A stretch of 64,000 nt of DNA, from positions 372,001 to 436,000 of the forward strand of contig NC_086108.1 in NCBI RefSeq assembly GCF_963921235.1. Reading direction: 5' to 3'. Position numbers and translations under genes: made by a program. This stretch comes from Mobula hypostoma. Taxonomy: Eukaryota. The notes under the pieces were generated by a model that was not told the DNA's origin, ran no database searches, and saw only the letters and a program-made list of their open reading frames with translations. Positions 28,991 to 57,134 of the stretch are shown piece after piece. Within the stretch, counting starts at the first letter, position 1. Each line of letters starts with the position of its first letter.

Positions 28991-29224
28991 AAGTTTTTTG
29001 CGACTTCAAAACATTAAGCTAAATCAGAGGAAGTCACAGGAGTCTCACATTGACTTTATTTTAAGCAAGGTGTGCACATATCATGGGCAGTGTGGTGACA
29101 TATATAATCCACATTTACATATATAACCCATAATGAATTACTTCAATGAACAAAGAATGCTTATCCAACAATATAATTATAATATTACTCAAATATTAAA
29201 TATACAACAAAAACCATCTGACAC

Positions 29225-29652: not shown

Positions 29653-29761
29653 ACAAGAAACCACTGACTGTATTTTATATTAAATTTGCCTATACATTTA
29701 ATCTCTCAGACTCTCTCTCTCATACACACATGGACAGATCTATTTATACTACCACTTGTAC

Positions 29762-30495: not shown

Positions 30496-31608
30496 GCCTG
30501 ACCCGAAGGAATACTTAAGAACTGGAAATGATATTCCAGGGAGAAAGAGACCTCTGCGATGGTCTTCGCCAACTTTGCAGTTAACAGATGGACTCATGAC
30601 CTCATAATCTACCTCATTATGATCTCGCTCGTGACCTCCACAAGAAAATAAAGAGTGCTGTGGAAACGGCTCAGCACACCATGGAAACCAGCCTCTTGTA
30701 CGACAACAAACCGGCCATGACCTCACAATCTACCTCATTATCATCTTGCAGGAAAATGCAGGGTGTTATGAATACAGCGCCAAATTCAACTTCACCAATA
30801 TGGACTCTGTCTACGCTTCTCACTGCCTCAGTAGAGCAGCAAGCAGACCAAAGACCTCTCCCACATTCTTTCTTATCCCCTCTCCCATCCAGTAGGAAAT
30901 GCAAAAGCCCAAGAACATGTGCCACAAGGTTCAAGGACAGCTTCTACTCCCATCTATCTTTGACAATATACAGATATAATAAGGACAATTAAGAAACTTC
31001 ATGTTCAAAGTTCAAAGTAAATATATTATCAAAGTGCACACACTATTGTGCAAAAGTCTTAGGCACGTGTGTACAGCTAGGGTGTGGAAGACGTTTACAG
31101 AGTACTTCAGTGATTTTATGTATTGCACAGTACTGCTGCCATGAAAAAAATTCCATTACATCGTGAGGGATGATAAACCTGATTCTGATATGGGTCTCTA
31201 TTGTGGACTGAGTTTGGGAAGGGGGCAGGAAGAGAAAAATGGGGAAGAGAAAGGGGAGGGAATGGAAACCAAAGAGACATTCTCTCATAATCGATAAAGA
31301 AATTTAACTGAGAAGGTTACGCACTGCACTCTCCCCCAACCACCCAGTCTCTCACTCTCTCTCCAACTGCCTATATTAGACTGTCAACCAGAAAACTTTG
31401 TAAACAACATCACCTATACAATCCTCCTGGCCTCCTAACTATCCTATCAATTCCTCCCTTTCACCTTTGCACCTTGAAATTAACTTCGCCAGTTCTAACA
31501 AAGGGTCTTTAACAGGAAATGTTAACTCTAATCTACAGCACTGCTTGAATGCATTTTGATGTCTTTTTCCTCTTTTGTCATCATCATTGCTAATTTAGTA
31601 AGGAGATT

Positions 31609-31651
<43 letters not shown>
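31609..31651 (+). repeat. (TG)n(AG)n compound microsatellite
   Basis: Seen directly; its counterpart at 55480-55550 is about 30 bp longer. Confidence 0.95.
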
Positions 31652-31652
<1 letters not shown>

Positions 31653-32671
31653 CACTATATATGGTGATGAGCAATCTAGATTCAGTCCTGACTGGAGTCC
31701 AATCTGTGTGAATTTTACACATTATTTCTGTGATCATGTAGACTTGCCCTGGATGCTCCACTTTCCTCTTAAATCCCAAAGGCACGTGGGTCAGTAAGTT
31801 AACTAACTGCTGGAAATTGTCCCAAATCCAGGGACAATGAAAATTAGTGGAAGAATGGAATTGCTGTGGTCTTTATGTGGTATCGACTTACCTCCTTTCA
31901 TATCATAAACAGACAGGCCTTTCAGCCTATAGTGTCTATTCCAACCATCCCATTTACCAGCATTTGATCTCAGTAAGTCAGACAGCATCTGTGAAGGCAG
32001 AGGGGTGGTTAGAGTTTCGGATTTTGGACTCTGAAGCAGGAGCCTGATGCAGTGTCTTGACCTGACTGCTGATCATCTCTTTGTTTCCATAGATGTTTCT
32101 TTAAATTATACCAGAACCACCCTGAACTGATGCAAGGAACAGTCAAGGCAGTTTGACCATAATGTTAAGCCAACCTACTCAGAGAATAATCTAACCCTTC
32201 TCTCCCACATAGTCCTTCAGTTTTCTTTCATCCATTGCCTATCTATTTTAAATTATCCTCATGTATCTACTTCTATCAGCACCCTGGCAGTGCATTCCAC
32301 ACACGAACTCTCTGCAATAACCTGACTATGACTTTTTCCCTTCAATCACCTTAAAATAATGCCCTCTCATACTAGCCAACGCCACCCGGGACAAAAGCAC
32401 TGGCTGGCCACTCTGTTTCAAATGTTCCCTCACACAAGATGATGCTGTTCCTGAAGCTCACTTTGAACCTCTTTCAGACAGTCCATGAGACCACCGAGAG
32501 GCATCAGAATAGTAGAGTTATAGGGGTAAAGGATTTTACTCCTACCCATAGTAATAGGATTTTACCTCATCAACTGTGATAATTTTAGTATTAAAGACTG
32601 GAGACAGGAAAGTGATAGTGGTTAGTTTTTGTGATTTCAAGTCTATGGCCAGTGGTATTGAAGTGTGTGAA

Positions 32672-35575: not shown

Positions 35576-35597
35576 GTGAAGGGAACGCTTTGGATTT

Positions 35598-38500: not shown

Positions 38501-38760
38501 CCTAAAGTCTCTCACCATCCCCTTTGTCTTATTAATGTTGAGCTTGGACCATTTGACAAAGTCCTCCACCAGGCCCCTGTATTCATCCTCCCGTCCTCCC
38601 TTTATACACCCAACCATTGCTGAGTCATCAGAGGATATCTGCAGATGTTATGACTCAGTGTGGTACCTAAAGTCTGAAGTGTACAAAGTCAACAGGGAGG
38701 GAGCCAATACAATCCCCTATGGGACCCCAGTGCTGTTTATAGTTTGTCTGACCCACATCT
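35598..38760 (-). mobile_element. Older Rex-Babar-type LINE 3' fragment, split by the CR1 at 35786-38012 (unsplit copy at 53510-54443)
   Basis: SDDSAMVGCI...LNINKTKGMV.DFRK...KYLGVHL; (ATCT)n tail. Confidence 0.75.
35786..38012 (+). mobile_element. Young 5'-truncated CR1 (family A) with one nonsense mutation
   Basis: Near-identical to 32672-34903 inverted; TGC>TGA at 37067-37069; tail TTTCTATG repeats. Confidence 0.97.
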
Positions 38761-39842
38761 CTGAATCTCGTGGTCAAATTTCCAATTAGTTTCAAGATAA
38801 TTATGGACAGGGATAGTTCTAGTCCTTGAATTGAGATTGTAAATTAGAGAAAAGCTGATTTTGCTGGTATCAGAAAGGATCTAGCAAGTGTGGATTGAGC
38901 AGGTTGCTTTCTGGCAAAGCCATGTGGAAGGCCTTAAAGTAAAATTTTGAGAGTACAGAATTTTGAGAGCAAAGTTAGCAAGTTCAGGGAACCTTGCTTC
39001 TTTGAGGGATAATGTGGCTGTATTTAAGAAGGAGAGGGATGTGCATAGCAGGTATAGGCAGCAAGGAGCAAATGATGTACTTGAATATGAAAAAGATAAG
39101 AGAATATGTAAAAGGAAATCAAGAGACATAAAAAATGGTATGAGGTTGTTCTCGCAGACGAGGTGTAGGAGAATCCCAAAGGTTTTTAAAAATATACTAA
39201 GAGCAAATGGGGAGCAAGGAAGAAGATTGGTCCTCCTGAAGATCAGCGTGCCTATCTATGCATGGAGCCAAGGGATGGGGGAGATCTTAAATGTTTTTTT
39301 TTTGCATATATATTTATTTGAGGGATGATCCCAAAGTCTATTGAACTCAAGCAATACAGTGAAGTTATGAACCATATACAGATTACAAAGGAGGAGGTGC
39401 TTGCTGTCTTGAGGCAAATTAGGGTATGTAAATCCCAGAGTCTGACAAAGTGCCTCTCACACCTTGTGGAAAGCTGGTGCAGGAATTGCAGGGACCTTTT
39501 CAGAGGTATTTAAAGCATTCTTAGCACAAATAAGAGAAAATCTGCAGGTGCTGGAAATCTAAACAACACACACAAAATGCTGGAGGAACTCGGCAGGCCA
39601 GGTAACATCTATGGAAAAGAGTAAACAGTTGACGTTTTGGTTCGAGACCCTTCATCAGCTCTGGAGAAAAAGATGAGAATTCAGAGTAAGAAGGTACAGG
39701 GTTGGAGAATGATGAATCTGAGGACAGAAAGCCATGGGAGAAAGAAAAGGGGGAGAAACACCAGACAGCAGTGATGGAAAGGTAAGAAGATCAGGTGAGA
39801 GAAGGAAATGGGAACAGGAAACGGTGAAGGGAAGGGGGTTAA

Positions 39843-42522
39843 GTAAACGCAAAGGAGGGGGCTGGCGGTTCTGGTAAATAACAGATGGTGTAATCCTGGG
39901 CATATTACGATCAAAGAACGTGTCTGTAGCCCGGATATTGAACTTTTTGCTGTTGGACTCCAGCCATATTATTTGTCAAGGGAAATCTCGCATGCAATTG
40001 TGGTTGTTGTGTACATCCCTCCCTCTGCCAACCCGACGTCGGAGTGTAACATCATTTACACCGTCATAGCCAGATTACAAACCCAGCACCCGAATGTCCT
40101 CATTACCATCTCGGGTGACTTCAACCAGGTTACCATGGCTAGAACACTGCCCAACTTCACACAGTATGTGAGCTGTACAACCAGAGGGGAGAGGACTCTG
40201 GATTTGATGTACGCTAACGTTAAGGATGCATGCAGCTCCTCTCCCCTCCCCCCACTGGGAAGGTCAGATCACAACCTGGTGCATCTAAAACCCTGCTACG
40301 TGCCTCTGGTGAAGAGTAAACCTGCAACCTCGAGGACAGTGAGGAAATGGTCGGAGGAGGCTTATGAGGCGCTCCAGGGTTGTTTTGAGGTGACAGACTG
40401 GCAGGCACTCTGTGAGCCACATGGAGAGGATATTGATGGGCTCACAGAGTGCATCACTGATTACATCAACTTCTGTGTGGACTGCAATGTTCCGACAAGA
40501 ACTGTCCTTTGTTATTCAAATAACAAGCCATGGGTGACAAAGGACATTAAAGACATCCTGAACGCTAAAAAGAGGGCGTTTAGAGATGGAAATAGGGAGG
40601 AGCTGAGGGCAATACAGAGGGACCTGAAAGCCAGGATCAGGGAGGCTGAAGACAGGTACAGGAGGAAGCTTGAGTGGAAACTCCAGCAGAACAACATGAG
40701 AGAGGTCTGGAGTGGGATGAGGACCATCACTGGGTTCCGGCAAACTAGCAACAGAGGAGCTGAAGGCAGTGTGGACAGGGCCAATGAACTTAACCTGTTC
40801 TTTAACAGATTTGACATTGTGACCCCTGCCCATCCCCCACATGAGCCATCTGTTGTCGACCCCCAACCATCACATATTCCACTCTCCCCTCCTACTCCTC
40901 CTCACAGTCCCCCACCCTGCTCTCATGACTATACCTCTTCCCCACACGAAACCACCACGGTGGGCTTCACAGCTGAACAGGTGAGAAGACAGCTGAAACG
41001 TCTCAACCCAAGCAAGGCTGTAGGACCGGATGGTGTCAGTACCAGGGTGCTCAAAGCCTGTGCCCCTCAGCTATGTGGAGTACTTCGCCATGTATTCAAC
41101 CTGAGCCTGAGGCTCCAGAAGGTTCCTGTGGAAGACGTCCTGCCTCGTCCCTGTGCCGAAGATGCCGCGCCCCAGCGGCCTTAATGACTACAGACCGGTG
41201 GCATTGACCTCCCACATCATGAAGACCCTGGAGAGACTTGTTCTGGAGCTGCTCTGGCCTATGGTCAGGCCACACTTAGATCCCCTCCAGTTCACCTACC
41301 AGCCCCGACTAGGAGTTGAGGATGCCATCGTCTACCTGCTGAATCGTGTCTACGCCCACCTGGACAAGCCAGCGAGCACTGTGAGGGTCATGTTTTTTGA
41401 CTTCCCCAGTGCATTCAACACCATCCGCCCTGCTCTGCTGGGGGAGAAGCTGACAGCGATGCAGGTGGATGCTTTCCTGGTATCATGGATTCTTGATTAT
41501 CCAACTGGCAGACCACAGTACGTGTGATTGCAACACTGTGTGCTGACAGAGTGATCAGCAGCACTGGGGCTCCACAGGGGACTGTCTTGTCTCCCTTTCT
41601 CTTCAGCGTTTACACCTCGGACTTCAACTACTGCACAGAGTCTTGTCATCTTCAGAAGTTTTCTGGTGACTCTGCCATAGTTGGATGCATCAGCAAGGAA
41701 GATGAGGTTGAGTACACGGCTACGGTAGGAAACTTTGTCACATGGTGTGAGCAGAGTTATCTGCAGCTTAATGTGAAAAAGACTAGGGAGCTGGTGGTAG
41801 ACCTGAGGAGAGCTAAGGTACCGGTGACTCCTGTTTCCATCCAGGGGGTCAGTGTGGACATGGTGGAGGATTACAAATACCTGGGGATACGAATTGACAA
41901 TAAACTGGACTGGTCTAAGAACACTGAGGCTGTCTACAAGAAGGGTCAGAGCCGTCTCTATTTCCTGAGGAGACTGATGTCCTTTAACATCTGCCGGACG
42001 ATGCTGAGGATGTTCTACGAGTCTGTGGTGGCCAGTGTTATCATGTTTGCTGTTGTGTGCTGGGACAGCAGGCTGAGGGTAGCAGACACCAACAGAATCA
42101 ACAAACTCATTCGTAAGGCCAGTGATGTTGTGGGGATGGAACTGGACTCTCTCTCGGTGGTGTCTGAAAAGAGGACGCTGTCTAAGTTGCATGCCATCTT
42201 GGACAATGTCTCCCATCCACTACATAATGTACTGGTTGGGCACAGGAGTACATTCAGCCAGAGACTCATTCCACCGAGATGCAACACAGAGCGTCATAGG
42301 AAGTCATTCCTGCCTGTGGCCATCAAACTTTACAACTCCTCCCTTGGAGGGTCAGACACCCTGAGCCAATAGGCTGGTCCTGGACTTATTTCATAATTTA
42401 CTGGCATAATTTACATATTACTATTTAACTATATATGGTTCTATTACTGTTTATTATTTATGGTGCAACTGTAACGAAAACAAGTTTCCCCCTGGGATCA
42501 ATAAAGTATGACTATGACTATG
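39843..42522 (+). mobile_element. Rex1/Babar-clade LINE (APE-RT, frameshifted) inserted in a Penelope-derived repeat
   Basis: GGLAVLVNNRWC, GDFN, TLDLMYAN, GRSDHN, YRPVALTS, GAPQGTVLSP, TNRINKLIRKA; tail AATAAAG(TATGAC)n. Confidence 0.88.
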
Positions 42523-43875
42523 TTACCGGAAGTTTGAGAAACCGGTGTTCATGCCATCAAGTTGCACGCTACCTAGACGGAATAGAAGGTGTTGTTCCTT
42601 TAACCTGAGTGTGGTCACATCGCGGAAGTAGAGGAAGCCATGGGAAATGTTAGAGTGGGAATTGGAAGTAGAATTAAAATGGGTGGCCATTGGGAGATCC
42701 TACTTTTTCTGGCTGATGAAGCATAGGTGGTTGATGAAGCGGTCTCCCAATCTACGCCAGGGCTCACCAATACACAGGAGACCACACCGGGAGCACCCGA
42801 TACAGAGATGACCTCAGCAGACTCACCATCAATGCTGCCCTCATCCGCATCTCTTCCATTACTCATATCTGCTCTCACCCCATCCTCGCCACCCCACCAG
42901 GGATGGGGTTCCTCTTGTTTTCACCTACCACACCACTAGCCTCCACGTCCAACACATAATTTTCCATAACTTCTGCCACCTCCAACAGGATCCCATCATC
43001 AAGCACATCTTTTGCTCCTCACCACTTCCTGTTTTCCATATTGTTTGCGACTCCCTTGTCCATTCACTTCTCCCCACCCATCTCTCTCCTGGTGCTTATC
43101 CTTACGAGCAGAATAAGTGCTACACCTGCCCTTACAACTCTTCTCTCACTGCCATTCAGGACCCCAAACAGTCCTTCCAGGTGAGGTGACACTTCACCTG
43201 TGAGGGTGTGGGGGTCATCTACTGTATCTGGTGCTCCCAGTGTGGCCTCCTTTATACTGGTGAGACCCAATGCAGGTTGGGAGACCGCTTCACCGAGCAT
43301 CTATGCTTTGCCCGCCAGAAAAAGCAGGATCTCCAATTGGCCATCCTTTTTAATTCTACTTACCATTCCCATTCCGACATGTTTGTCCATGGCCTCCTCT
43401 AGTGCTGCAATGAGGCCACACTCAGGTTGGAGGAGCAACACGTTACATTCTGTCTGGTTCCATCTGGATTGCATGGATATCAATTTCACGAACATCTGGT
43501 AATTTCCCTCCCCCACCTCTCCTTCATCATTCCCCATTCCCATTTCCCTTTCTCAACTTATCTCCTAACCTCCCACCACCTCCCTCTAGTGCTCCTCCCT
43601 CTTCCCTTTCTTCCACGGCCTTCTATCAGATTCCTCCTTCTCAGCCCTTCATCTCGTTCAGCGATTGATTTCCCAGCTCTTCACTTCAGACCTCTCCCTC
43701 TCCCAGGTTTCACCTATCACCTACTACCTTGTATTTCTTCCTCCCCTCCTCCACCTTCTCACCATTTTCCTCCAGTCCTGATGAAGGGTCATGGCCCAAC
43801 ACCAACCTGTTTACTCTTTTCCATAGATGCTGCCTGCTCTGCTGAGTTCCTGCAGCATTTTGTGTGTGTTGCTCA
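42523..43875. mobile_element. Penelope-like 3' fragments (GIY-YIG plus pseudo-LTR) in inverted arrangement
   Basis: GVIYCIWCSQCGLLYTGETQCRLGDRFTEH on + (43208-43402); a homologous copy on - (42615-42830) continues to 39530-39842. Confidence 0.85.
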
Positions 43876-44134
43876 AAGCATTCTCAGCCAGGTGTACGGT
43901 GCCAGAGCACTGGAGGATAGCTAATGTTGATCAGTTAATAAAGAAATGCTGTAAAAATGAGTCAGGAAATGATAAACCAGTGAGCTTACCAGTAGTGGGT
44001 AACATTGGAGGGTATTCTAAGGTACTGGATATATAAGTAGTTGGATAGACAGGTACAGATTGGAGATAGTCAACATGACTCTGTGCCATTGTAGGGCACG
44101 TCCAGCCAATTTCACAGTGTTTTACTCGGTCCGT

Positions 44135-45470
44135 TGATGAATGAGAAGCACTCAAGCCCACATCCTGGCTATTATTTGGAGGCCTATGGTTCCTATAATG
44201 GTGTTTTCACCCTTGCAGTTTCTTAATTCCACCCACAAAGATTCAACATTCTCTGAGCCCATGCCACCTCCTTCTAAAGATGTAATTCCATCTCTTAACA
44301 ACAGAGCCACACCACTGCCTATGCCTTCCTGCCTGTCCTTTCAATACAAAGTATATCCTTTGATGTTAAGCTCCCAACTATGGCCTTCTTTCAGCCACGA
44401 CTCAGTGATGCCCATAGCATCATACTGACCAATCTCTGATTGCCCCACAAGTTCGTCCACCTTATTCCAAATGCTATGTGCATTTGAGTACAGCATCTTT
44501 AGTCCTGCATTCTTCACCTTTTGAATTTTGCCTCTGTGGTGCAATCTAACTCATTGTTCTGTCTGCATTTGTGCCCAACATTTGGCTTGTCCTTCCTTAC
44601 ATTCATGTTACACCCATCATCTACTTGCAAACCTGTTGGCTCATTCTCAGCTCTATCATCCTGGTCCCCATCCCCCTGCCATATAAGTTTAAACCACTCC
44701 CAACAGCTCTAGTACACCTGCCCACAAGAATACTGCATTCAAGTACATTCCCTCCCTTTTGTACAGGTCACAGCTGCCTCAAAAGAGGTCCCAATTATCA
44801 AGAAATCTGAATCCCTGCCCCACGCGTCAATTCTTCAGTCACGCATTTATCTGCCACTTCATTCTGCTCCTATCCTCACTGTCGCATGGCACAGGTAGCA
44901 ATCCTGAGGTGACTACCCTTGAGATCCTGATTCTCAGCTTTTTTCCTAACTCCCTGTATTCTGCTTTCAGGACTTCCTCCCTTTTTCGACCTTTGTCGTT
45001 GGTACCAATATGTTCCACGACCTCTGGCTGCTCACCCTCCCTTTTCAGGATATTGTGGACACATCCTGGACCCTGACACCTGGGAGGCAGCTATCATCCT
45101 TATTTCTTTTTCACCATCACAGAATCACCTATCTCTTACCCTAGCTATAGTCCCTTATTAGTACTGCAATCCTCTTCACTTCCCTACCATTCTGAGCCAC
45201 AGGGTCAGACTCAGCCCGAGAGGCACGGCCGCTGTTGCTTCCCCCACATAGGCCATACCCCCCCAACAGTACTCAAAATGGAGATACTTATTGTTGAGGG
45301 GGATGGCCACAGGGGTGCTCTCCACTATCTGACATTCTTCCTTTCCTCTCCTGACAGTCACCCATTGATCTGTCTCCTCCAGCCAGGATTGACTATCTCC
45401 CAGTCGCTCATGTCTATCACCTCTTCACTTTCTCGAACAAGCTGCAGCTCCAGTTCCCTAACATGGTCTT
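44135..45470 (-). mobile_element. Decayed CR1 5' region (ORF1 remnant plus APE start)
   Basis: ESTPVAIPLNNKY; LKMLYSNAHSIWNKVDEL...GITESWLKEGHSWELNIKGY. Confidence 0.8.
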
Positions 45471-46403
45471 TAAAGATGGGTTCAATGGGTAAAGAAGGAC
45501 TACAGATGAGAGCTGTGTTTAAATAGGCAGCCGGTAATTCATGTTAGCTGGCTGGAGACTGGGAAGTGCCTGGCTGTGCAGGCCTGATAGAATACAGGAG
45601 TTGGAATATTATGTTGATATTAAACAAGTTGTTGCTGAGATGGAATTTGGAATATTGTGTGCAGTTTCAGTCTCCTAATTAGTTGAAAGTTATCAATAAG
45701 ATGAAAATGTACAAAAAAATTTACAAGGATGTTGCAAGGTCTTGAAGACTTCAATTATTGGAGAAGCTTGAATAGATTAAGACATTATTCCCTTGGAGCA
45801 TAGGAGAATGAGAGGAGTTTTGATCGAGGTATACAAACTTATAAGATAAGTGCAAGAAGGCTTTCTTCACTGAGGTTGAGTGAATCTAGAACTAGAGGTC
45901 AGGGGTTAGGGGTGAAAGATGAAATGTTTAAGGGAAACATAAAGGAAAACTTCTTCACTCAGTGGTATGTGAGAGTGTGACATGAGCTGCTAGCAGAAAT
46001 AGTGATTGAGGGTTTCATTTCAACATCTGCCATTTCACCACAATATCTGCAACAGATCTATATCCCAATATATCATTTTGCAGTTGTTCACACTATCCAC
46101 AACACCACCAATCCTTGTGTCACCTGAAAACTTACTAATCCAATGTCATCTACAGTATATATATCCTGTATCACAAACAGTAGAGGTCCCATTACATTTC
46201 CCTGTGGAATAACATTAATTATGGACCTTCAACTGCCATCCTGTTTGTAATTCTGATTAGTTAAACCAGATCAGAACTAGTAGGGCTCTAGAACTTTCAG
46301 AGAACAGAGATATATTGGAAATTGCCACCAGCCCTTAATTGTTAATCATAAATGGAAATAACATGTTCTCAAAGGAGAAATACATGAATAGCCTGAAATA
46401 TAA

Positions 46404-46782
46404 ACTTACCATCTTTAACTCAGGGGACTCAATGTATTAAAGTGTTTGGTATACCTTGACCTGAATTGCTCTTCAAATTTACTTCTCATGTATGAAAGAA
46501 TTCCCTTTATTACCCTCGCATAAGTCAACAGCAGTCATACTGATGACACAATAATAGTTTGTCAATTCTGCATTGTGATCTGGTAATCTTATGCAATTTA
46601 ATAGTAATTATCAGAAATTTTCTACATTATTCAGCCAGGAAACCCTGAGTCAGCAACAAGGCTGCCATTTTTTGTCCACACTGTCAAAGAATTGGCCAGC
46701 CCGGCCATCTGTGTACCAGCTGACCAGTCCACCCGTACAAATCGTGGACAATTAGCGTGGTTCTTATTGTTGTACGATGCAC
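46404..46782 (-). other. Candidate first exon ending in AAG-ATG|GTAAGT (probably the SPATA25-like exon 1, now inverted)
   Basis: Non-repeat sequence with a consensus donor GTAAGT at 46409-46404 immediately after ATG (46412-46410). Gene assignment is an inference from the inversion reconstruction. Confidence 0.45.
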
Positions 46783-48565
46783 AAACCCCAAGGCGTTCTT
46801 CAATAATGTGAAGAACAAAAGGATGACAGGAGTGAAGGTAGGACCGATTAGAGATAAAGGTGGGAAGATGTGCCTGGAGGCTGTGGAAGTGAGCGAGGTC
46901 CTCAATGAATACTTCTCTTCGGTATTCACCAATGAGAGGGAACTTGATGAAGGTGAGGACAATATGAGTGAGGTTGATGTTCTGGGGCATGTTGATATTA
47001 AGGCAGAGGAGGTGTTGGAGTTGTTAATATACATTAGGACAGATAAGTCCCCAGGGCCTGATGGAATATTCCCCAAGCTGCTCCACGAGGTGAGGGAAGA
47101 GATTGCTGAGCCTCTGGCTAGGATCTTTATGTCTTCATTGTCCACGGGAATGGTACCGAACGATTGGAGGGAGGCGAATGTTGTCCCTTTGTTCAAAAAA
47201 GGTAGTAGGGATAGTCCGGGTAATTATAGACCAGTGAGCCTTACGTCTGTGGTGGGAAAGCTGTTGGAAAAGATTCTTAGAGATGGGATCTATAGGCATG
47301 TAGAGAATCATGGTCTGATCAGGGACAGTCAGCATGGCTTTGTGAAGGGCAGATCGTGTCTAACAAGCCTGATAGAGTTCTTTGAGGAGGTGACCAGGTA
47401 TATAGATGAGGGTAGTGCAGTGGATGTGATCTATAAGGATTTTAGTAAGGCATTTGACAAGGTTCCACACGGTAGGCTTATCCAGAAAATCAGAAGGCAT
47501 GGGATCCAGGGAAGTTTGGCCAGGTGGATTCAGAATTGGCTTGCCTGCAGAAGGCAGAGGGTCGTGGTGGAGGGAGTACATTCAGATTGGAGGGTTGTGA
47601 CTAGTGGTGTCCCACAAGGATTGGTTCTGGGACCTCTACTTTTCAAGATTATTATTAGCGACCTGGATGTGGGGGTAGAAGGGTGGGTTGGCAAGTTTGC
47701 AGACGTCACAAAGGTTGGTGGTATTGTAGATAGTGTAGGGGATTGTCGAAGATTGCAGAGGGCATTGATAGGATGCAGAAGTGGGCTGAGAAGTGGCAGA
47801 TGGAGTTCAACCAGGAGAAGTGTGAGGTGGTACATTTTGGAAGGACAGACTCCAAGGCAGAGTACAAAGTAAATGGCAGGATACTTGGTAGTGTGGAGGA
47901 GCAGAAGGATCTGGGGGTAAATGTCCACAGATCCCTGAAAGTTGCCTCACAGGTGGATAGGGTAGTTAAGAAAGCTTATGGGGTGTTAGCTTTCATAAGT
48001 CGAGGGACAGAGTTTAAGAGTCACGATGTAATGATGCAGCTCTATAAAACTCTGGTTAGGCCACACTTGGAGTACTGTGTCCAGTTCTGGTCACCTCACT
48101 ATAGGAAGGATGTGGAAGCATTGGAAAGGGTACAGAGGAGATTTACCAGGATGCTGCCTGGTTTAGAGAGTATGAATTATGATCAGAGATTAAGGGAGAG
48201 AAGGAGGATGAGAGGAGACATGATAGAGGTATACAAGATATTAAGAGGAATAGATAGAGTGGATAGCCAGCGCCTCTTCTCCTGGGCACCACTGCTCAAT
48301 AAAAGGGGCCATGGCTTTAAGGTAAGGGGTGGGAAGTTCAAGGGGGATATTAGAGGAAGGTTTTTCACTCAGAGAGTGGTTGGTGCGTGGAATGCACTGC
48401 CTGAGTCAGTGGTGGAGGCAGATACACTAGTGAAATTTAAGAGACTACTAGACAGGTATATGGAGGAATTTAAGGTGGGGAGGCAGGTTTTGAGGGTCAG
48501 CACAACAATGTAGGCCGAAGGGCCTGTACTGTGCTGTACTATTCTATGTTCTATGTTCTATGTTC
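46783..48565 (+). mobile_element. 5'-truncated CR1 (family B)
   Basis: RT ORFs 46757-47872 and 47743-48513 (frameshift, small deletion); (TTCTATG)n tail. Confidence 0.95.
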
Positions 48566-48859
48566 GAAAGTGAACTGCAGTGAACTAGCCTAGCAAAGTC
48601 TTTATAAAACGTTAGGACACAAAGTCGCTACCTTGTACTTGCGGTGAAAGCGGTACTGCTCATATAGAATTCGATGCTGAAGCTCAATACTGTAAAAGAC
48701 GCACCTCTCTCCGTGTAAATACAGTGCATTTGGTGTAGAGATTGTCAAATAACCATCATACGCGTAATTGCCTGCATGAAGACCCCAGATTTCTAGTGCA
48801 CTGAGTGACGTCAGTGGTAAATGCGTCAGATACCAGTTGTAAAACGAACAGTACACTAA
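48566..48859. promoter_or_regulatory. Unique CpG-retaining segment with a CRE; candidate promoter
   Basis: Palindromic TGACGTCA at 48806-48813 and CRE-like TGCGTCA at 48822-48828; many CpGs relative to old flanking repeats. Confidence 0.45.
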
Positions 48860-51800
48860 CAGCACTAGAGGAGGCCATGGACAAACATGTCGGAATGGGA
48901 ATGGTAAGTAGAATTAAAAAGGATGGCCAATTGGAGATCCTGCTTTTTCTGGCGGGCAAAGCATAGATGCTCGGTGAAGCGGTCTCCCAACCTGCATTGG
49001 GTCTCACCAGTATAAAGGAGGCCACACTGGGAGCACCAGATACAGTAGATGACCCCCACACCCTCACAGGTGAAGTGTCACCTCACCTGGAAGGACTGTT
49101 TGGGGTCCTGAATGGCAGTGAGAGAAGAGTTGTAAGGGCAGGTGTAGCACTTATTCTGCTCGTAAGGATAAGCACCAGGAGAGAGATGGGTGGGGAGAAG
49201 TGAATGGACAAGGGAGTCGCAAACAATATGGAAAACAGGAAGTGGTGAGGAGCAAAAGATGTGCTTGATGATGGGATCCTGTTGGAGGTGGCAGAAGTTA
49301 TGGAAAATTATGTGTTGGACGTGGAGGCTAGTGGTGTGGTAGGTGAAAACAAGAGGAAGCCCATCCCTGGTGGGGTGGCGAGGATGGGGTGAGAGCAGAT
49401 ATGAGTAATGGAAGAGATGCGGATGAGGGCAGCATTGATGGTGAGTCTGCTGGGGTCATCTCTGTATCGGGTGCTCCCGGTGTGGTCTCCTGTGTATTGG
49501 TGAGCCCTGGCGTAGATTGGGAGACCGCTTCATCAACCACCTATGCTTCATCAGCCAGAAAAAGTAGGATCTCCCAATGGCCACCCATTTTAATTCTACT
49601 TCCAATTCCCACTCTAACATTTCCCATGGCTTCCTCTACTTCCGCGATGTGACCACACTCAGGTTAAAGGAACAACACCTCTATTCCGTCCAGGTAGCGT
49701 GCAACTTGATGGCATGAACACCGGTTTCTCAAACTTCCGGTAACATAGTCATAGTCATACTTTATTGATCCCAGGGGGAAATTGGTTTTCGTTACAGTTG
49801 CACCATAAATAATAAACAGTAATAGAACCATAAATAGTTAAATAGTAATATGTAAATTATGCCAGTAAATTATGAAATAAGTCCAGGACCAGCCTATTGG
49901 CTCAGGGTGTCTGACCCTCCAAGGGAGGAGTTGTAAAGTTTGATGGCCACAGGCAGGAATGACTTCCTATGACGCTCCGTGTTGCATCTCGGTGGAATGA
50001 GTCTCTGGCTGAATGTACTCCTGTGCCCAACCAGTACATTATGTAGTGGATGGGAGACATTGTCCAAGATGGCATGCAACTTAGACAGCGTCCTCTTTTC
50101 AGACACCACCGTGAGAGAGTCCAGTTCCATCCCCACAACATCACTGGCCTTACGAATGAGTTTGTTGATTCTGTTGGTGTCTGCTACCCTCAGCCTGCTG
50201 CCCCAGCACACAACAGCAAACTTGATAACAGTGGCCACCACAGACTCGTAGAACATCCTCAGCATCGTCCGGCAGATGTTAAAGGACATCAGTCTCCTCA
50301 GGAAATAGAGACGGCTCTGACCCTTCTTGTAGACAGCCTCAGTGTTCTTAGACCAGTCCAGTTTATTGTCAATTCGTATCCCCAGGTATTTGTAATCCTC
50401 CACCATGTCCACACTGACCCCCTGGATGGAAACAGGGGTCACCGGTACCTTAGCTCTCCTCAGGTCTACCACCAGCTCCCTAGTCTTTTTCACATTAAGC
50501 TGCAGATAACTCTGCTCACACCATGTGACAAAGTTTCCTACCGTAGCCGTGTACTCAACCTCATCTTCCTTGCTGATGCATCCAACTATGGCAGAGTCAT
50601 CCGAAAACTTCTGAAGATGACAAGACTCTGTGCAGTAGTTGAAGTCCGAGGTGTAAATGGTGAGAGAAGGGGAGACAAGACAGTCCCCTGTGGAGCCCCA
50701 GTGCTGCTGATCACTCTGTCAGACACACAGTGTTGCAAGCACACGTACTGTGGTCTGCCAGTTGGATAATCAAGAATCCATGATACTAGGAAAGCATCCA
50801 CCTGCATCGCTGTCAGCTTCTCCCCCAGCAGAGCAGGGCGGATGGTGTTGAATGCACTGGGGAAGTCAAAAAACATGACCCTCACAGTGCTCGCTGGCTT
50901 GTCCAGGTGGGCGTAGACACGGTTCAGCAGGTAAACGATGGCATCCTCAACTCCTAGTCGGGGCTGGTAGGTGAACTGGAGGGGATCTAAGTGTGGCCTG
51001 ACCATAGGCCAGAGCAGCTCCAGAACAAGTCTCTCCAGGGTCTTCATGATGTGGGAGGTCAATGCCACCGGTCTGTAGTCATTGAGGCCGCTGGGGCGCG
51101 GCGTCTTCGGCACAGGGACGAGGCAGGACGTCTTCCACAGGAACCTTCTGGAGCCTCAGGCTCAGGTTGAATACATGGCGAAGTACTCCACATAGCTGAG
51201 GGGCACAGGCTTTGAGAACCCTGGTACTGACATCATCCGGTCCTGCAGCCTTGTTTGGGTTGAGACGTTTCAGCTGTCTTCTCACCTGTTCAGCTGTGAA
51301 GCCCACCGTGGTGGTTTCGTGTGGGGAAGAGGTATAGTCATGAGAGCAGGGTGGGGGACTGTGAGGAGGGGTAGGAAGGGAGAGTGGAATATGTGTTGGT
51401 TGGAGGCCGACAACAGATGGCTCATGTGGGGGATGGGCAGGGGTCACAATGTCAAATCTGTTAAAGAACAGGTTAAGTTCATTGGCCGTGTCCACACTGC
51501 CTTCAGTTCCTCTGTTGCTAGTTTGCCGGAACCCAGTGATGGTCCTCATCCCACTCCAGACCTCTCTCATGTTGTTCTGCTGGAGTTTCCACTCAAGCTT
51601 CCTCCTGTACCTGTCTTCAGCCTCCCTGATCCTGGCTTTCAGGTCCCTCTGTATTGCCCTCAGCTCTTCCCTATTTCCATCTCTAAACACCCACTTTTTA
51701 GCGTTCAGGATGTCCTTAATGTCCTTTGTCACCCATGGCTTGTTATTTGAATAACAAAGGACAGTTCTTGTCGGAACATTGCAGTCCACACAGAAGTTGA

Positions 51801-54800
51801 TGCAATCAGTGATGCACTCTGTGAGCCCAACAATATCCTCTCCATGTGGCTCACAGAGTGCCTGCCAGTCTGTCACCTCAAAACAACCCTGGAGCGCCTC
51901 ATAAGCCTCCTCCGACCATTTCCTCACTGTCCTCGAGGTTGCAGGTTTACTCTTCACCAGAGGCACGTAGCAGGGTTTTAGATGCACCAGGTTGTGATCT
52001 GACCTTCCCAGTGGGGGGAGGGGAGAGGAGCTGTATGCATCCTTAATGTTAGCGTACATCAAATCCAGAGTCCTCTCCCCTCTGGTTGTACAGCTCACAT
52101 ACTGCATGAAGTTGGGCAGTGTTCTAGCCAAGGTAACCTGGTTGAAGTCACCCGAGATGGTAATGAGGACATTCGGGTGCTGGGTTTGTAATCTGGCTAT
52201 GACGGTGTAAATGATGTTACACTCTGACGTCGGGTTGGCAGAGGGAGGGATGTACACAACAACCACAATTGCATGCGAGATTTCCCTTGACAAATAATAT
52301 GGCCGGAGTCCAACAGCAAAAAGTTCAATATCCGGGCTACAGACACGTTCCTTGATCGTAATATGCCCAGGATTACACCATCTGTTATTTACCAGAACCG
52401 CCAGCCCCCCTTCTTTGCGTTTACTTAACCCCCTTCCCTTCACCATTTCCTGTTCCCATTTCCTTCTCTCACCTGATCTTCTTACCTTTCCATCACTGCT
52501 GTCTGGTGCTTCTCCCCCTTTTCTTTCTCCCATGGCTTTCTGTCCTCAGATTCATCATTCTCCAACCCTGTACCTTCTTACTCTGAATTCTCATCTTTTT
52601 CTCCAGAGCTGATGAAGGGTCTCGAACCAAAACGTCAACTGTTTACTCTTTTCCATAGATGTTACCTGGCCTGCCGAGTTCCTCCAGCATTTTGTGTGTG
52701 TTGTTTAGATTTCCAGCACCTGCAGATTTTCTCTTATTTGTGCTAAGAATGCTTTAAATACCTCTGAAAAGGTCCCTGCAATTCCTGCACCAGCTTTCCA
52801 CAAGGTGTGAGAGGCACTTTGTCAGACTCTGGGATTTACATACCCTAATTTGCCTCAAGACAGCAAGCACCTCCTCCTTTGTAATCTGTATATGGTTCAT
52901 AACTTCACTGTATTGCTTGAGTTCAATAGACTTTGGGATCATCCCTCAAATAAATATATATGCAAAAAAAAAACATTTAAGATCTCCCCCATCCCTTGGC
53001 TCCATGCATAGATAGGCACGCTGATCTTCAAGAGGACCAATCTTCTTCCTTGCTCCCCATTTGCTCTTAGTATATTTTTAAAAACCTTTGGGATTCTCCT
53101 ACACCTCGTCTACGAGAACAACCTCATACCATTTTTTATGTCTCTTGATTTCCTTTTACGTATTCTCTTATCTTTTTCATATTCAAGTACATCATTTGCT
53201 CCTTGCTGCTTATACCTGCTATGCACATCCCTCTCCTTCTTAAATACAGCCACATTATCCCTCAAAGAAGCAAGGTTCCCTGAACTTGCTAACTTTGCTC
53301 TCAAAATTCTGTACTCTCAAAATTTTACTTTAAGGCCTTCCACATGGCTTTGCCAGAAAGCAACCTGCTCAATCCACACTTGCTAGATCCTTTCTGATAC
53401 CAGCAAAATCAGCTTTTCTCTAATTTACAATCTCAATTCAAGGACTAGAACTATCCCTGTCCATAATTATCTTGAAACTAATTGGAAATTTGACCACGAG
53501 ATTCAGAGATGTGGGTCAGACAAACTATAAACAGCACTGGGGTCCCATAGGGGATTGTATTGGCTCCCTCCCTGTTGACTTTGTACACTTCAGACTTTAG
53601 GTACCACACTGAGTCATAACATCTGCAGATATCCTCTGATGACTCAGCAATGGTTGGGTGTATAAAGGGAGGACGGGAGGATGAATACAGGGGCCTGGTG
53701 GAGGACTTTGTCAAATGGTCCAAGCTCAACATTAATAAGACAAAGGGGATGGTGATAGACTTTAGGAAGACTAAGCCTGCATCGCTCCCTTTTACTATTG
53801 ATGGTGAGGACATGGAAGTAGTGAGGCCTAACAAATACCTGGGAGTGCATCTGGGTGACAGACTTGAGTGGAGCTGTGTACAAGAAGGGCCACCTCTACT
53901 TTCTGAGGAGACTGAGATCCTTTGGACTATGCAAGTCTCTCCTTCACACGTTCTACCAATCTGTTGTCACTAGTACAATCCTCTATGTGTGCGAGTCAAT
54001 GGCATCAACACAGGTGATACCAACAGACTGAATAAACTGATTAGAAAGGCTGGGTCTGTTATAGGAGTCAAACTGGACACACTGGAGACTGTAGTAGAAC
54101 AAAGGTCCCCACAGAAAATCCTGACAATTCTGGACAGTTTTCTCACCCTCTGCCTTCCCCCTTGGCTGAACAGAGAAGCACTTTTAGTAACAGACTAAGA
54201 CAACTGCACTGCTTTAAAGAGCACTACAAGTGGTCACTCTTACCCTCGGCCGTTATGCTCTATAATGAGTTAACCTATAGCCAGGGAAGTGATGACCCCC
54301 TCCTGTTAGACTGTCTGAGGTCACTTATTTTTTATTCTTTTTACTTCTCTTCTAATATTAATATCTGTGCACATGTAATGCTACTGTGGCACTGTAATTT
54401 CCTTTGGGATCAGTAATGTATCTATCCATTTATCTATCTATCTAAATCCAAAGCGTTCCCTTCACACACTTCAATACCAGTGGCCATAGACTTGAAATCA
54501 CAAAAACTAACCACTATCACTTTCCTGTCTCCAGTCTTTAATACTAATATTATCACAGTTGATGAGGTAAAATCCTATTACTATGGGTAGGAGTAAAATC
54601 CTTTACCCCTATAACTCTACTATTCTGATGCCTCTCGGTGGTCTCATGGACTGTCTGAAAGAGGTTCAAAGTGAGCTTCAGGAACAGCATCATCTTGTGT
54701 GAGGGAACATTTGAAACAGAGTGGCCAGCCAGTGCTTTTGTCCCGGGTGGAGTTGGCTAGTATGAGAGGGCATTATTTTAAGGTGATTGAAGGGAAAAAG

Positions 54801-55478
54801 TCATAGTCAGGTTATTGCAGAGAGTTCGTGTGTGGAATGCACTGCCAGGGTGCTGATAGAAGTAGATACATGAGGATAATTTAAAATAGATAGGCAATGG
54901 ATGAAAGAAAACTGAAGGACTATGTGGGAGAGAAGGGTTAGATTATTCTCTGAGTAGGTTGGCTTAACATTATGGTCAAACTGCCTTGACTGTTCCTTGC
55001 ATCAGTTCAGGGTGGTTCTGGTATAATTTAAAGAAACATCTATGGAAACAAAGAGATGATCAGCAGTCAGGTCAAGACACTGCATCAGGCTCCTGCTTCA
55101 GAGTCCAAAATCCGAAACTCTAACCACCCCTCTGCCTTCACAGATGCTGTCTGACTTACTGAGATCAAATGCTGGTAAATGGGATGGTTGGAATAGACAC
55201 TATAGGCTGAAAGGCCTGTCTGTTTATGATATGAAAGGAGGTAAGTCGATACCACATAAAGACCACAGCAATTCCATTCTTCCACTAATTTTCATTGTCC
55301 CTGGATTTGGGACAATTTCCAGCAGTTAGTTAACTTACTGACCCACGTGCCTTTGGGATTTAAGAGGAAAGTGGAGCATCCAGGGCAAGTCTACATGATC
55401 ACAGAAATAATGTGTAAAATTCACACAGATCGGACTCTAGTCAGGACTGAATCTAGATTGCTCATCACCATATATAGT

Positions 55479-55553
<75 letters not shown>

Positions 55554-55833
55554 TCTCCTTACTAAATCAGCAATGATGATGGAAAAAGAGGAAAAAGACA
55601 TCAAAATGCATTCAAGCAGTGCTGTAGATTAGAGTTAACATTTCCTGTTAAAGACCCTTTGTTAGTACTGGTGAAGTTAATTTCAAGGTGCAAAGAGGAA
55701 AGGGAGGAATTGATAGGATAGTTAGGAGGCCAGGAGGATTGTATAGGTGATGTTGTTTACAAAGTTTTCTGGTTGACAGACTAATATAGGCAGTTGGAGA
55801 GAGAGTGAGAGACTGGGTGGTTGGGGGAGAGTG
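48860..55833 (-). repeat. Right arm of the inverted segmental duplication
   Basis: Reverse complement of 31327-43407 without the two CR1 copies; both empty sites visible (about 54255 and 54462). Confidence 0.97.
49744..52424 (-). mobile_element. Duplicated copy of the Rex1/Babar LINE
   Basis: Mirror of 39843-42522 with the same junctions and the shared LQKVPVEDVL frameshift. Confidence 0.9.
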
Positions 55834-56305
55834 AAACCACAGAAATAATTGAAGTTTGAAAACTAGTAGCAGGTCGGAAGAGCTACAGAGAAATTAAATC
55901 ATTGTGGTCTGGAAATGCCCAGCAAATCAGAGTGGCTGTGAAATGAGAAGAACTGAGTCAATGTTAGAGAAGGATAAACTCAGAGCAAAGCTTGCTAGTT
56001 CTGAAACAGAGAGTTAAACAAAACTGAACTGATTGAATTTGACATTGAGACAGAAGGCCACCGTGTGTCCAGCTGAGGATGAAGTGCTGTTCCTCAAGCT
56101 GCCATTGGCCCTCATTGGAACTGTACTGGAGATCATAGTCTTATGCCCCCTTCAAATGACAGTAACGGTTTGATTTCTTCCAGGGAAATTTTTAAGTGTG
56201 GTCTTATATTATCACATAGACATGATTTTAGGAATACATATTTAAAACTTGAATATAAAACTCAGTAGATCTGTCCTTGTGTTTGTGAAACATATCTCTT
56301 TATAG

Positions 56306-57134
56306 GTGATCACATTGACGCTAATTCAGAACTACCTCTGCTTCCAAATCGTAAAACTTGTCCCCTCATTGCAGAAAACAACACAGAGAAGTAGTGACAG
56401 GACACGTAAAGATAGAACGCAACAGTGTTTTAGCTGTAGTGCATCCTTTATTTATCTACGCCGACAAATTTGCTGTTTAATGAATCACTTTTCTCTTCAA
56501 GGCAATATGGAATATCCAAAACAACAATGGAATCAACAGGGAGATGATTATCCTGAAATTTATCTTCAAGGCTTTTATGAAACATATTCTTTAAACACTT
56601 TTCTCGATAATCATGCAGATTATTTTCACCATCAGAATTATTCCGACCACTCTACAATGTCATTGAGCAGGAGGTCACAGAATTTTGAACTAAGTCATGA
56701 GGGATCTGCACCTCATGTAATTTTACACCAACAGCTTGAACATTATCAACAAAGCCACCAATTACAAAGAACAAGATTTCCTGTTGAAAGTATCACATCC
56801 TGTGGCCACATCACACCAAGGCTTGCCTGATTACGGAGCTGCAGCAGAACCTGCAAAGCAAAGTGAAACTCCCAGAACATGTATCCTCACTCTTGCCATG
56901 ATGATAGCTGGCATCCCCACTGCCCCTGTGCCCACTGTGAAAACCGAAGATATGGTGTTGGCAGTACAAAAATTCAGAGATGATAACCCAAACCTAAGCA
57001 GTGACATAGATGAGATGCTGAAAGTTAAAAGAGACAGAAAAGAAGCCTTTATGAATGATTCACCTTTGCAGATGAAAGTTAACACTACAGATGAGAGGAT
57101 CAACTGGAAGAGAATGAGAGAATCCTCAAGTTAA
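56306..57134 (+). pseudogene. SPATA25: SPATA25-like terminal coding exon with an apparent frameshift (56736-56830 overlap)
   Basis: [27 protein letters not shown] matches the SPATA25 motif [25 protein letters not shown] as I recall it. Acceptor tctctttatAG at 56305; overlapping 174-aa and 132-aa frames; AATAAA near 57323. Confidence 0.8.

What the first reader, a model, noticed from the sequence alone, without database searches (positions are those of the whole stretch)
46404..57134. The inversion appears to have flipped the promoter and exon 1 away from a SPATA25-like gene
Seen: the spacer carries, on the minus strand, a CRE-bearing unique segment (48566-48859), a CR1 insertion, and then an exon ending AAG-ATG|GTAAGT (46410). 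In the reconstructed ancestral orientation these lie on the plus strand upstream of the acceptor at 56305. Splicing would give ATG|GTG ATC ACA..., exactly the 174-codon open frame, with A at -3 and G at +4. The SPATA25 motif lies one frameshift downstream. Inference: a testis gene was decapitated by the inversion and also carries a promoter CR1 insertion and a frameshift.
Basis: partly seen in the sequence, partly recalled or inferred. Interest (0 to 1): 0.8.

Follow-up and report, generated by a model that had tools for sequence, protein, structure and literature searches.

The report
Broken SPATA25 copy in a palindrome
This is a frameshifted extra copy of the sperm-development gene SPATA25 sitting in a large mirror-image duplication near a chromosome end; the genome keeps one intact copy elsewhere, and the proposed "lost first exon" is likely a chance motif, so the finding is ordinary.

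Summary
The SPATA25 call is right: Pfam PF15218 gives E=2e-13, and the two frames match catshark SPATA25 residues 1-111 and 113-218.

- **Copies:** the genome has six SPATA25 exon copies. Only the one about 65 kb from the end of contig C2 is intact.
- **Frameshift:** it is a 14-bp deletion shared by the other five copies. The window copy also has a second 14-bp deletion that removes the conserved C-terminal tail.
- **Start codon:** orthologues start at MNHF/MEYP inside this exon, not at an upstream ATG. The frame running from the acceptor is open in only 1 of 6 copies.
- **Donor:** the "donor" ATG|GTAAGT is private to the window. C2 and both C70 copies read ATG|ATAAGT.
- **LINE and CRE:** the LINE is also present at the intact C2 locus. 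The CRE lies in a dispersed repeat.

One inference was right. In C2 and C70 the spacer's content lies upstream of the exon on the same strand.

The structure is a palindrome of about 75 kb whose arms differ by 1.2%. Its left arm lost the exon in a 9.8-kb deletion, and its right arm starts inside the former upstream region. An asymmetric inverted duplication explains this without an inversion. An inversion cannot be excluded.

No RNA data could be obtained.

The parts
56306..57134 (+). SPATA25 coding exon, pseudogene copy (5' leader, N-terminal frame, frameshift, C-terminal frame)
   Evidence: Six genomic copies share this exon. BLASTP to catshark LOC119969410 matches residues 1-111 (E=3e-52) and 113-218 (E=9e-47) in two different frames.
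56480..56830 (+). N-terminal SPATA25 frame: native start MNHF (ATG 56480; second ATG MEYP at 56507 in a GCAATATGG context), running into a premature TGA at 56828-56830
   Evidence: Orthologues start at MNHF or MEYP. 66% identity to catshark residues 1-111.
56806..56807 (+). Site of the 14-bp deletion (relative to C2) that causes the frameshift; it removes part of the conserved QVIVTSH stretch
   Evidence: Alignment of the six copies: 5 of 6 lack the 14 bp and only C2 has them and an open frame. The stretch is conserved in orthologues.
56856..56996 (+). Conserved SPATA25 core ([18 protein letters not shown]...), read in the shifted frame
   Evidence: Pfam PF15218, 49-51 bits against a cut-off of 27. 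Two columns that are invariant in orthologues are changed here, A->T and V->A.
57121..57122 (+). Site of a second 14-bp deletion. It shifts the frame and ends the protein at 57132-57134, losing the conserved tail YPQ(I/V)NVL.ESxD
   Evidence: Absent from the window, C77 and C166; present in C2, C70a and C70b. The tail is conserved in shark orthologues.
56369..56370 (+). Site of a 10-bp deletion in the leader. It happens to open the frame from the acceptor to the native ATG
   Evidence: C2 and C70b keep the 10 bp and have stops in that frame. The frame from the acceptor is open only in the window, 1 of 6 copies.
48860..55833 (+). Right palindrome arm, inner part. Homologous to the upstream/intron DNA of the C2 locus; the arm continues through the SPATA25 exon and beyond the window to about 89737
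14786..43407 (-). Left palindrome arm. It carries LINE insertions at about 32672-35575 and 35786-38011, and at 31327-31353 it lacks 9.8 kb of the C2-type sequence, including the whole SPATA25 exon
43408..48859 (-). Single-copy spacer. On the minus strand it is collinear with the left arm and with the DNA upstream of the C2 gene
   Evidence: The same order on one strand is seen in C2 and in both C70 copies.
46404..46412 (-). Its GT is a change private to the window
   Evidence: C2, C70a and C70b read ATG|ATAAGT. Motif frequency is at chance level.
46724..48565 (+). LINE fragment (reverse transcriptase) with a short tandem-repeat tail at 48540-48565. It is older than the amplification
   Evidence: RVT_1 E=4.5e-24. 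It aligns continuously with C2 and both C70 copies.
48566..48859 (-). CRE-bearing segment. TGACGTCA lies at 48806-48813 inside a dispersed repeat (48743-48859)
   Evidence: The CRE is kept in C2, reads TGATCTCA in both C70 copies, and 1 of 5 dispersed copies examined keeps it exactly.
48856..48859 (.). Non-homologous junction (4-nt filler CTAA) between the upstream end of the spacer and the right arm
   Evidence: Read directly against C2 and against the left arm.
48901..48909 (+). Second ATG|GTAAGT motif, on the + strand. It lies 95 nt after the CRE and 7.4 kb upstream of the SPATA25 exon, and is mirrored at 43358-43366 (-)
Evidence: also present in C2.

Best explanation
The + strand exon at 56306-57134 is a frameshifted, truncated duplicate of SPATA25, likely non-functional, and it lies in the right arm of a roughly 75-kb palindrome 0.4 Mb from the start of contig C50. 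The sequence shows directly that a 14-bp deletion splits the reading frame, that a second 14-bp deletion removes the conserved C-terminal tail, and that the only intact SPATA25 gene in the genome lies about 65 kb from the end of contig C2. From here the account is inferred. A C2-like unit was copied several times. The first extra copy took the 14-bp frameshift, which all later copies inherited. In the C50 lineage, the part of the unit from the middle of the upstream region outward was then duplicated in inverted orientation and joined, by a non-homologous join with a 4-nt filler, to the upstream end of the original copy. Under this history the right-arm exon never had its own upstream module. 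The original (left) copy later lost its exon through a 9.8-kb deletion. The proposed promoter and exon 1 are likely not such: the donor GT is a private mutation of this copy, the ATG is not the family's start codon, and the CRE belongs to an interspersed repeat.
For: - **SPATA25 identity:** shown.
- **Copy number:** six loci match, and only C2 has an open frame, of 296 codons.
- **Nested indels:** 14-bp deletion 1 is in 5 of 6 copies, the 10-bp deletion in 4 of 6, and 14-bp deletion 2 in 3 of 6.
- **Further lesions:** C77 has a 1-bp insertion that leads to a stop soon after (HQTA*), plus a stop between the two candidate start codons. C166 has W->stop in MEYPKQQW.
- **Divergence:** the window's arms differ at 65 of 5397 sites (1.2%), while the copies on different contigs differ by 3.4-4.7%. 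The window's rearrangement is therefore younger than the shared frameshift, unless arm-to-arm conversion hides its age.
- **Collinearity:** the window's minus strand 48855->14786 is collinear with C2 from the CRE segment outward, apart from a 9.8-kb gap that holds the exon. The plus strand from 48860 to about 89737 is collinear with C2 starting inside the upstream region.
- **Junction:** it carries a filler, CTAA, and no homology.
- **Donor:** GT only in the window, 1 of 4 copies that hold the site.
- **Frame from the acceptor:** open in 1 of 6 copies.
- **Start codon:** orthologues start at MNHF/MEYP.
- **LINE:** shared with C2 and C70.
- **CRE:** lies in a repeat.
Against: - No RNA data were obtained, so I could not see the real 5' end of SPATA25 transcripts in this species, from C2 or any other copy. 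A 5' exon somewhere in the spacer is not excluded.
- The acceptor-like TTTATAG|G at 56305 is identical in all six copies, which would fit a real 5'-UTR intron.
- The structure alone cannot say which arm was the original. Arms of 98.8% identity would allow the spacer to flip by homologous recombination, so the right arm may once have been the collinear one.
- The low arm divergence could reflect gene conversion rather than youth. That would weaken the order 'frameshift first, rearrangement later'.
- pN/pS of the copies against C2 is 0.6-1.2 on only 17-23 differences each. This is too few to show neutrality.
Confidence: 0.7

Rival explanations
1. The right arm was the original complete unit, and homologous recombination between the inverted arms flipped the 5.45-kb spacer. 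This moved the upstream module (CRE segment, LINE, donor-bearing segment) away from the + strand SPATA25 exon.
For: - In the flipped orientation, the spacer plus right arm would be gap-free collinear with C2 from the CRE segment to beyond the exon.
- The arms are long (at least 5.4 kb uninterrupted) and 98.8% identical. From general knowledge of palindromes, this is a good substrate for spacer inversion.
- C2 and both C70 copies show the collinear order.
Against: - It needs one step more than a plain asymmetric inverted duplication, and no observation requires it.
- Even if it happened, nothing shows that the moved DNA is the promoter and first exon. The donor GT is private to the window, the ATG is not the family's start, the frame is closed in 5 of 6 copies, and the CRE is repeat-borne.
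- The exon already carried the shared frameshift, so no working gene was decapitated.
Confidence: 0.2
2. The window's palindrome descends from a complete head-to-head palindrome like the one on contig C70, where both arms keep the CRE segment, the LINE and the exon. A central deletion then removed the old spacer and the right copy's upstream module.
For: - C70 holds such a palindrome. Its exons lie at 69090-69912(-) and 111998-112652(+), its upstream modules at 81585-84018(-) and 90929-93368(+), and its inner boundary corresponds to a point only about 700 bp further upstream in C2 than the window's junction.
- A single deletion from left-copy position 30606 to right-copy position 38968 (C2 reverse-strand numbering used) would give the window's layout.
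Against: - The window and the C70 arms share no derived structural feature. LINE insertion sites and deletions differ.
- The window's arms are 1.2% apart but about 4% from C70.
- The 10-bp and second 14-bp indels place the window with C77 and C166 rather than with C70.
Confidence: 0.07
3. The palindrome is an assembly artefact, such as a haplotype or fold-back read joined in inverted orientation, and the real locus is a single collinear copy.
For: Inverted false duplications are a known failure of long-read assemblies (general knowledge). I could not inspect raw DNA reads.
Against: - The 114 kb around the window holds no N.
- The arms differ at 65 sites, by two LINE insertions and by a 9.8-kb deletion.
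- The first arm difference lies only 500 bp from the spacer, so single long reads would span the spacer and both distinguishing flanks.
- A second, different palindrome of the same family exists on C70.
Confidence: 0.03

Closest known systems
SPATA25 / TSG23 (Pfam PF15218), a vertebrate gene expressed in spermatocytes and round spermatids
   Same: The conserved core matches the Pfam model above its cut-off. Both halves align with the catshark, elephant-shark and bamboo-shark proteins. Expression in human and mouse germ cells is taken from passages of PMC9962311, which cites Zhou et al. 2009; I did not read that paper.
   Different: The window copy is split by a 14-bp deletion, lacks the conserved tail, and has substitutions at two columns that are invariant among orthologues. 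Only the C2 paralogue is intact.
Duplicated (non-processed) pseudogenes in segmental duplications near chromosome ends
   Same: The exon was copied together with tens of kb of flanking non-coding DNA and transposons. Copies lie 0.4 Mb from one end of C50, 65 kb from the end of C2, and on three short unplaced contigs. Disabling lesions accumulate.
   Different: No telomere repeats were found in the fetched stretches, so 'subtelomeric' rests only on distance to contig ends.
Ampliconic palindromes with testis genes on mammalian sex chromosomes (recalled from Skaletsky et al. 2003 and Rozen et al. 2003; not read here)
   Same: Long inverted arms of about 99% identity surround a unique spacer. A testis-gene family is present in several copies, two of them palindromic.
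   Different: The gene copies in these palindromes are broken, and the window's arms are asymmetric because one lacks the gene. Arm-to-arm gene conversion is not shown, and the sex linkage of the contigs is unknown.
Inversions flanked by inverted duplications (staggered-break model; recalled from Ranz et al. 2007, not read here)
   Same: A single-copy segment is bounded by an inverted duplicate of the sequence at one of its ends, and it has a non-homologous junction.
   Different: The same layout arises from inverted duplication without any inversion. Nothing here shows that the spacer changed orientation.

Membership tests
SPATA25 (PF15218) | Match to the family profile above Pfam's gathering score | tested here: met
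   51 bits against a cut-off of 27, E=2.2e-13, profile positions 146-193. A genome-wide scan gives 49.4 bits at this locus.
SPATA25 (PF15218) | One uninterrupted reading frame collinear with orthologues, from MNHF/MEYP to the YPQxNVL tail | tested here: not met
   The frame is broken at 56806/56807 by a 14-bp deletion, and the tail is lost through a second 14-bp deletion at 57121/57122. The feature is met by the C2 paralogue.
SPATA25 (PF15218) | Invariant hydrophobic core C-I-L-A-L-x-M-M-x-A-G-I-P-T-V-P-V-P | tested here: inconclusive
   The window reads [18 protein letters not shown], so two invariant columns are changed (A->T, V->A) and the rest are kept.
SPATA25 (PF15218) | Testis or germ-cell expression | not testable with these tools
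   No RNA holder was listed. Contigs laid did not cover 56025-56826.
   GT is present in 1 of 4 copies. C2, C70a and C70b read AT.
   The frame is open in 1 of 6 copies, and C2 has a stop after 33 codons. Three orthologues that reach the N-terminus begin at MNHF or MEYP.
Palindrome (inverted segmental duplication with spacer) | Two long arms in inverted orientation with high identity around a single-copy spacer | tested here: met
   The arms differ at 65 of 5397 sites over the inner 5.4 kb, and the spacer is 5452 bp. The arms extend to 14786 and to about 89737.
Palindrome (inverted segmental duplication with spacer) | Arm-to-arm gene conversion | tested here: inconclusive
   Differences are unevenly spread: 2 in the first 750 bp, about 1.7% in the middle, and 6 in 1500 bp further out. 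No test against a conversion-free model was made.
Inversion of the spacer by recombination between arms | Evidence of the alternative orientation, from reads, other individuals or a sister species | not testable with these tools
   No usable DNA reads of this organism were available. Both orientations give one seamless and one novel junction, so the sequence alone cannot decide.

The most novel reading that the evidence does not exclude
The chromosome-end palindromes on C50 and C70 form an active, recombining amplicon system for a sperm-development gene in a cartilaginous fish, comparable to the testis-gene palindromes of mammalian sex chromosomes. Their spacer would flip between individuals and switch a CRE-bearing 5' module from one arm to the other. 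The truncated 116-residue N-terminal SPATA25 products, or their transcripts, would be expressed in testis.
Probability: 0.05. Interest if true: 0.55.

Novelty: new member of a known kind. Interest (0 to 1): 0.2.

Why it matters
The finding matters little in itself. It adds a set of dead SPATA25 duplicates and two palindromic segmental duplications near chromosome ends to the picture of a large, transposon-rich cartilaginous-fish genome.

It is useful for annotation. Five of the six SPATA25-like loci should be flagged as pseudogenes, and the C2 locus should be taken as the gene.

It is also a caution about method. A donor motif, a CRE and an open frame that fit together neatly can still all be accidents. 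Here the causes were a private point mutation, a repeat-borne motif and a 10-bp deletion in a leader.

If the palindromes proved to be recombinationally active and expressed, they would be an early-vertebrate parallel to mammalian testis-gene amplicons.

Tried and rejected
- **RNA evidence, run search:** The look-up of sequencing runs listed no holder on record as RNA. The one partial holder had 0.04 of the sampled words.
- **RNA evidence, first read laying:** (runs X1, X2, X3 and X6 on 46000-58000, at least 90% alike) was dominated by transposon contigs from related organisms. It gave no cover of 56025-56826 in three of the four runs, the fourth (X3) having only a trace depth of 3.5 in 56025-56425 and none in 56426-56826, and no joint between the spacer and the exon among the 15 joints shown; 283 further joints were not shown. 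This says nothing about expression.
- **pN/pS against C2:** values of 0.6-1.2 rest on 17-23 differences per copy, too few to use.
- **Telomere repeats:** none were found in 114 kb of C50 or in the last 108 kb of C2.
- **Literature:** 0 papers hold both 'SPATA25' and 'shark'. Four hold 'SPATA25' and 'pseudogene'; by title and abstract start none concerns this, and I read none of them.
- **Earlier scan notes:** the two notes near this place concern transposons beyond the window and did not bear on this finding.
- **A reading I corrected:** I first concluded that the donor site is deleted in the C70 copies. One search showed that it is present there but reads AT. The break seen was an 805-bp LINE-tail insertion 23 nt upstream.
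- **A frame-restoring intron at the 'weak acceptor' 56734:** rejected. The C2 gene and all orthologues read straight through this region without an intron.
Full report
**Where the window lies.** The window is C50:372001-436000 of a 3.48-Gb genome. C50 is 118,116,484 bases long, so the window lies 0.4 Mb from one end of a large contig. It is rich in transposons: LINE reverse transcriptases, an endonuclease-RT ORF of 950 codons, and a Tc1/Sleeping-Beauty-type fragment.

**Observation.**
- The inverted arms are 38012-43407 and 48860-54256, around a 5452-bp spacer.
- The window's only TGACGTCA is at 48806.
- A LINE RT ORF lies on the + strand at 46724-47869 (RVT_1, E=4.5e-24).
- AAAGATG|GTAAGT lies on the minus strand at 46404-46412.
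- TTTATAG|GTGATC lies at 56305/6, followed by a 174-codon open frame.
- A SPATA25 match lies in a different frame, 56721-57134 (PF15218, E=2.2e-13, 51 bits against a cut-off of 27).

The motifs are not statistically remarkable. GGTAAGT occurs 8 times against 7.7 expected. ATGGTAAGT occurs 3 times against 0.58 expected, with 3 of 100 shuffles reaching 3, and two of the three are the same arm site at 43358(-) and 48901(+).

**What the exon is.** A search with the intact paralogue found 10 proteins at E<=0.001, all carrying PF15218. They include catshark LOC119969410 (248 aa, 67% identity), elephant-shark, bamboo-shark and coelacanth proteins, and named SPATA25 of tetrapods.
- The window's N-terminal frame (56480-56827) matches catshark residues 1-111 at 66% identity (E=3e-52).
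- The shifted frame matches residues 113-218 (E=9e-47).
- The break falls exactly where the window lacks 14 bp that the C2 copy has, between 56806 and 56807. This removes part of the conserved QVIVTSH stretch.
- A second 14-bp deletion at 57121/2 removes the conserved tail YPQ(I/V)NVL.ES.D.
- A 10-bp deletion at 56369/70 lies in the leader.

**The family in this genome.** DNA and profile searches both find exactly six loci: C50 (the window), C77, C166, C70 twice, and C2. Only C2 has an open frame, 296 codons from stop to stop, giving 251 residues from MNHF that are collinear with orthologues to the last residue. C2 is 252,427,829 bases long and its copy lies about 65 kb from the contig's end.

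The indels are nested:

| Indel | Copies that carry it | Count |
|---|---|---|
| 14-bp deletion 1 | all except C2 | 5 of 6 |
| 10-bp deletion | C50, C77, C166, C70a | 4 of 6 |
| 14-bp deletion 2 | C50, C77, C166 | 3 of 6 |

This gives the order (C2,(C70b,(C70a,(C50,C77,C166)))). C77 and C166 carry further lesions, and C70b has an internal deletion. Because five separately assembled copies share the identical 14-bp gap, the frameshift is not a sequencing error. I did not check raw reads.

**Architecture.** I compared the window with 70-108 kb of the C2 end, using the C2 reverse strand so that the gene reads forward.
- On C2 the following all lie on one strand in one order: the CRE segment, the LINE, the donor-bearing segment, about 13 kb of further DNA, the SPATA25 exon and its downstream region.
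- The same order holds in both copies of a head-to-head palindrome on C70.

In the window the two strands behave differently.
- The minus strand from 48855 down to 14786 is collinear with C2 from the CRE segment outward. The exceptions are two LINE insertions and a 9.8-kb gap at 31327-31353 that removes the whole SPATA25 exon.
- The plus strand from 48860 to about 89737, which is beyond the window, is collinear with C2 starting inside the upstream region and running through the exon.

The structure is thus a palindrome of about 75 kb, and each arm has lost what the other keeps. The join between the upstream end of the spacer and the right arm is non-homologous, with a 4-nt filler at 48856-48859. 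The inner arms differ at 65 of 5397 sites (1.2%). Copies on different contigs, C2 included, differ by 3.4-4.7% in the same stretch.

**Test of 'promoter and exon 1'.**
1. At the proposed donor, the three other copies that hold the site (C2, C70a, C70b) read GATG|ATAAGT, and only the window reads GT. C2 and C70 span the root of the indel tree, so A is ancestral and the window's G is a private change. An earlier reading of mine, that the site is deleted in C70, was wrong. The C70 copies carry an 805-bp LINE-tail insertion 23 nt upstream of it, and C2 carries a 2.85-kb insertion of the same family 100 bp downstream.
2. The frame from the acceptor to the conserved protein is open only in the window, 1 of 6 copies. 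In C2 it stops after 33 codons. The window's open frame is a by-product of the 10-bp leader deletion.
3. The orthologues that reach the N-terminus begin at MNHF (catshark, elephant shark) or MEYP (P0001). These correspond to the ATGs at 56480 and 56507, and the second sits in an A-3/G+4 context.
4. The LINE is present at the same place in C2 and in both C70 copies, so it is not a lesion of this copy.
5. The CRE lies in the part of the segment (48743-48859) that is an interspersed repeat: 33 of 40 scored genomic matches, out of 977 first-look candidates. Of five dispersed copies aligned, one has TGACGTCA and four have variants. C2 keeps the CRE, and both C70 copies read TGATCTCA.
6. An equally good ATG|GTAAGT, preceded by GCCATGG, lies on the + strand at 48877-48909. 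It is 95 nt from the same CRE and collinear with the exon in the present orientation, and it is conserved in C2. Motif logic therefore cannot decide that the exon is headless.

**History and mechanism.**
- *Shown:* the exon is a broken SPATA25 duplicate, the palindrome exists, and the two arms carry complementary losses.
- *Inferred:* the 14-bp frameshift arose once in the first extra copy. The C50 palindrome arose later by an asymmetric inverted duplication joined by non-homologous repair. The right-arm exon therefore never had its own upstream module, and the left arm later lost its exon.
- *Rival 1, spacer inversion by recombination between the arms:* it needs one more step and nothing requires it, but it cannot be excluded. 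Both orientations give one seamless and one novel junction, and arms of this identity are a good substrate.
- *Rival 2, descent from a C70-type complete palindrome by central deletion:* possible, but no shared derived features support it.
- *Rival 3, assembly artefact:* unlikely, given the many differences between the arms and the absence of gaps.

**RNA.** I could not test expression or 5' ends. The true first exon and promoter of SPATA25 in this species remain unknown. The acceptor-like site at 56305 is identical in all six copies and may be a real 5'-UTR acceptor.

**Comparison with what is known, and verdict.** The exon belongs to the SPATA25 family by homology but fails the test of an intact frame, so it is a duplicated pseudogene. 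SPATA25 expression in spermatocytes and round spermatids of human and mouse is taken from passages of PMC9962311. The palindromes resemble the testis-gene amplicons of mammalian sex chromosomes (recalled, not read), but here the gene copies are dead. No paper in the searchable library links SPATA25 to sharks, and none linking it to pseudogenes looked relevant by title and abstract start, unread. This is a new member of a known kind and of low interest. The 'promoter and exon 1 flipped away by an inversion' reading is not supported.

Noticed in passing
window 32775-35624 (-); copies at 11793-13905, 20516-22493, 32674-35568, 35784-38013: A young LINE family. One copy has an uninterrupted 950-codon ORF with endonuclease and reverse-transcriptase domains. 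Four copies in the window are 97-99% alike, and two of them inserted into the left palindrome arm in opposite orientations.
   Followed up: partly
window 42647-42805 / 43222-43380 and 48887-49045 / 49462-49620: A fold-back element (81% complementary arms, 416 nt apart) sits at the inner end of each palindrome arm, right at the duplication boundary. A 75% relative lies elsewhere in the C2 stretch. It might have helped to start the inverted duplication.
   Followed up: no
contig C70:50001-130000 (loci L035-L042): A second palindrome of the same amplicon, differently built. Both arms keep the upstream module and a SPATA25 exon, and the inner junction is about 700 bp from the window's junction in C2 terms. 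One exon has an internal deletion, and a 7.5-kb insertion lies just before the other exon.
   Followed up: partly
C77:90617 and C166:228216 (loci L046, L050): The C77 and C166 copies both lose homology to the amplicon at exactly the same point (window equivalents 41662 and 50604). They are therefore duplicates of one already truncated copy. What lies beyond that point was not identified.
   Followed up: no
window 48743-48859: A dispersed repeat of about 113 bp with hundreds of genomic copies. Its consensus seems to hold a CRE-like TGACGTCA that decays at its CpG in most copies. The kind of element is not determined.
   Followed up: partly
L005 (C2:252361237-252365115), upstream of MNHF: In the intact C2 gene, the 10 bp missing from most other copies contain an in-frame upstream ATG. 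It would add 39 residues (MVVQK...) that have no counterpart in orthologues.
   Followed up: no
window 4891-6060 (+): A fragment of a Tc1/Sleeping-Beauty-type transposase (HTH_SB, E=8e-15) lies in one open frame with a weak RT match. These are probably nested transposons.
   Followed up: no
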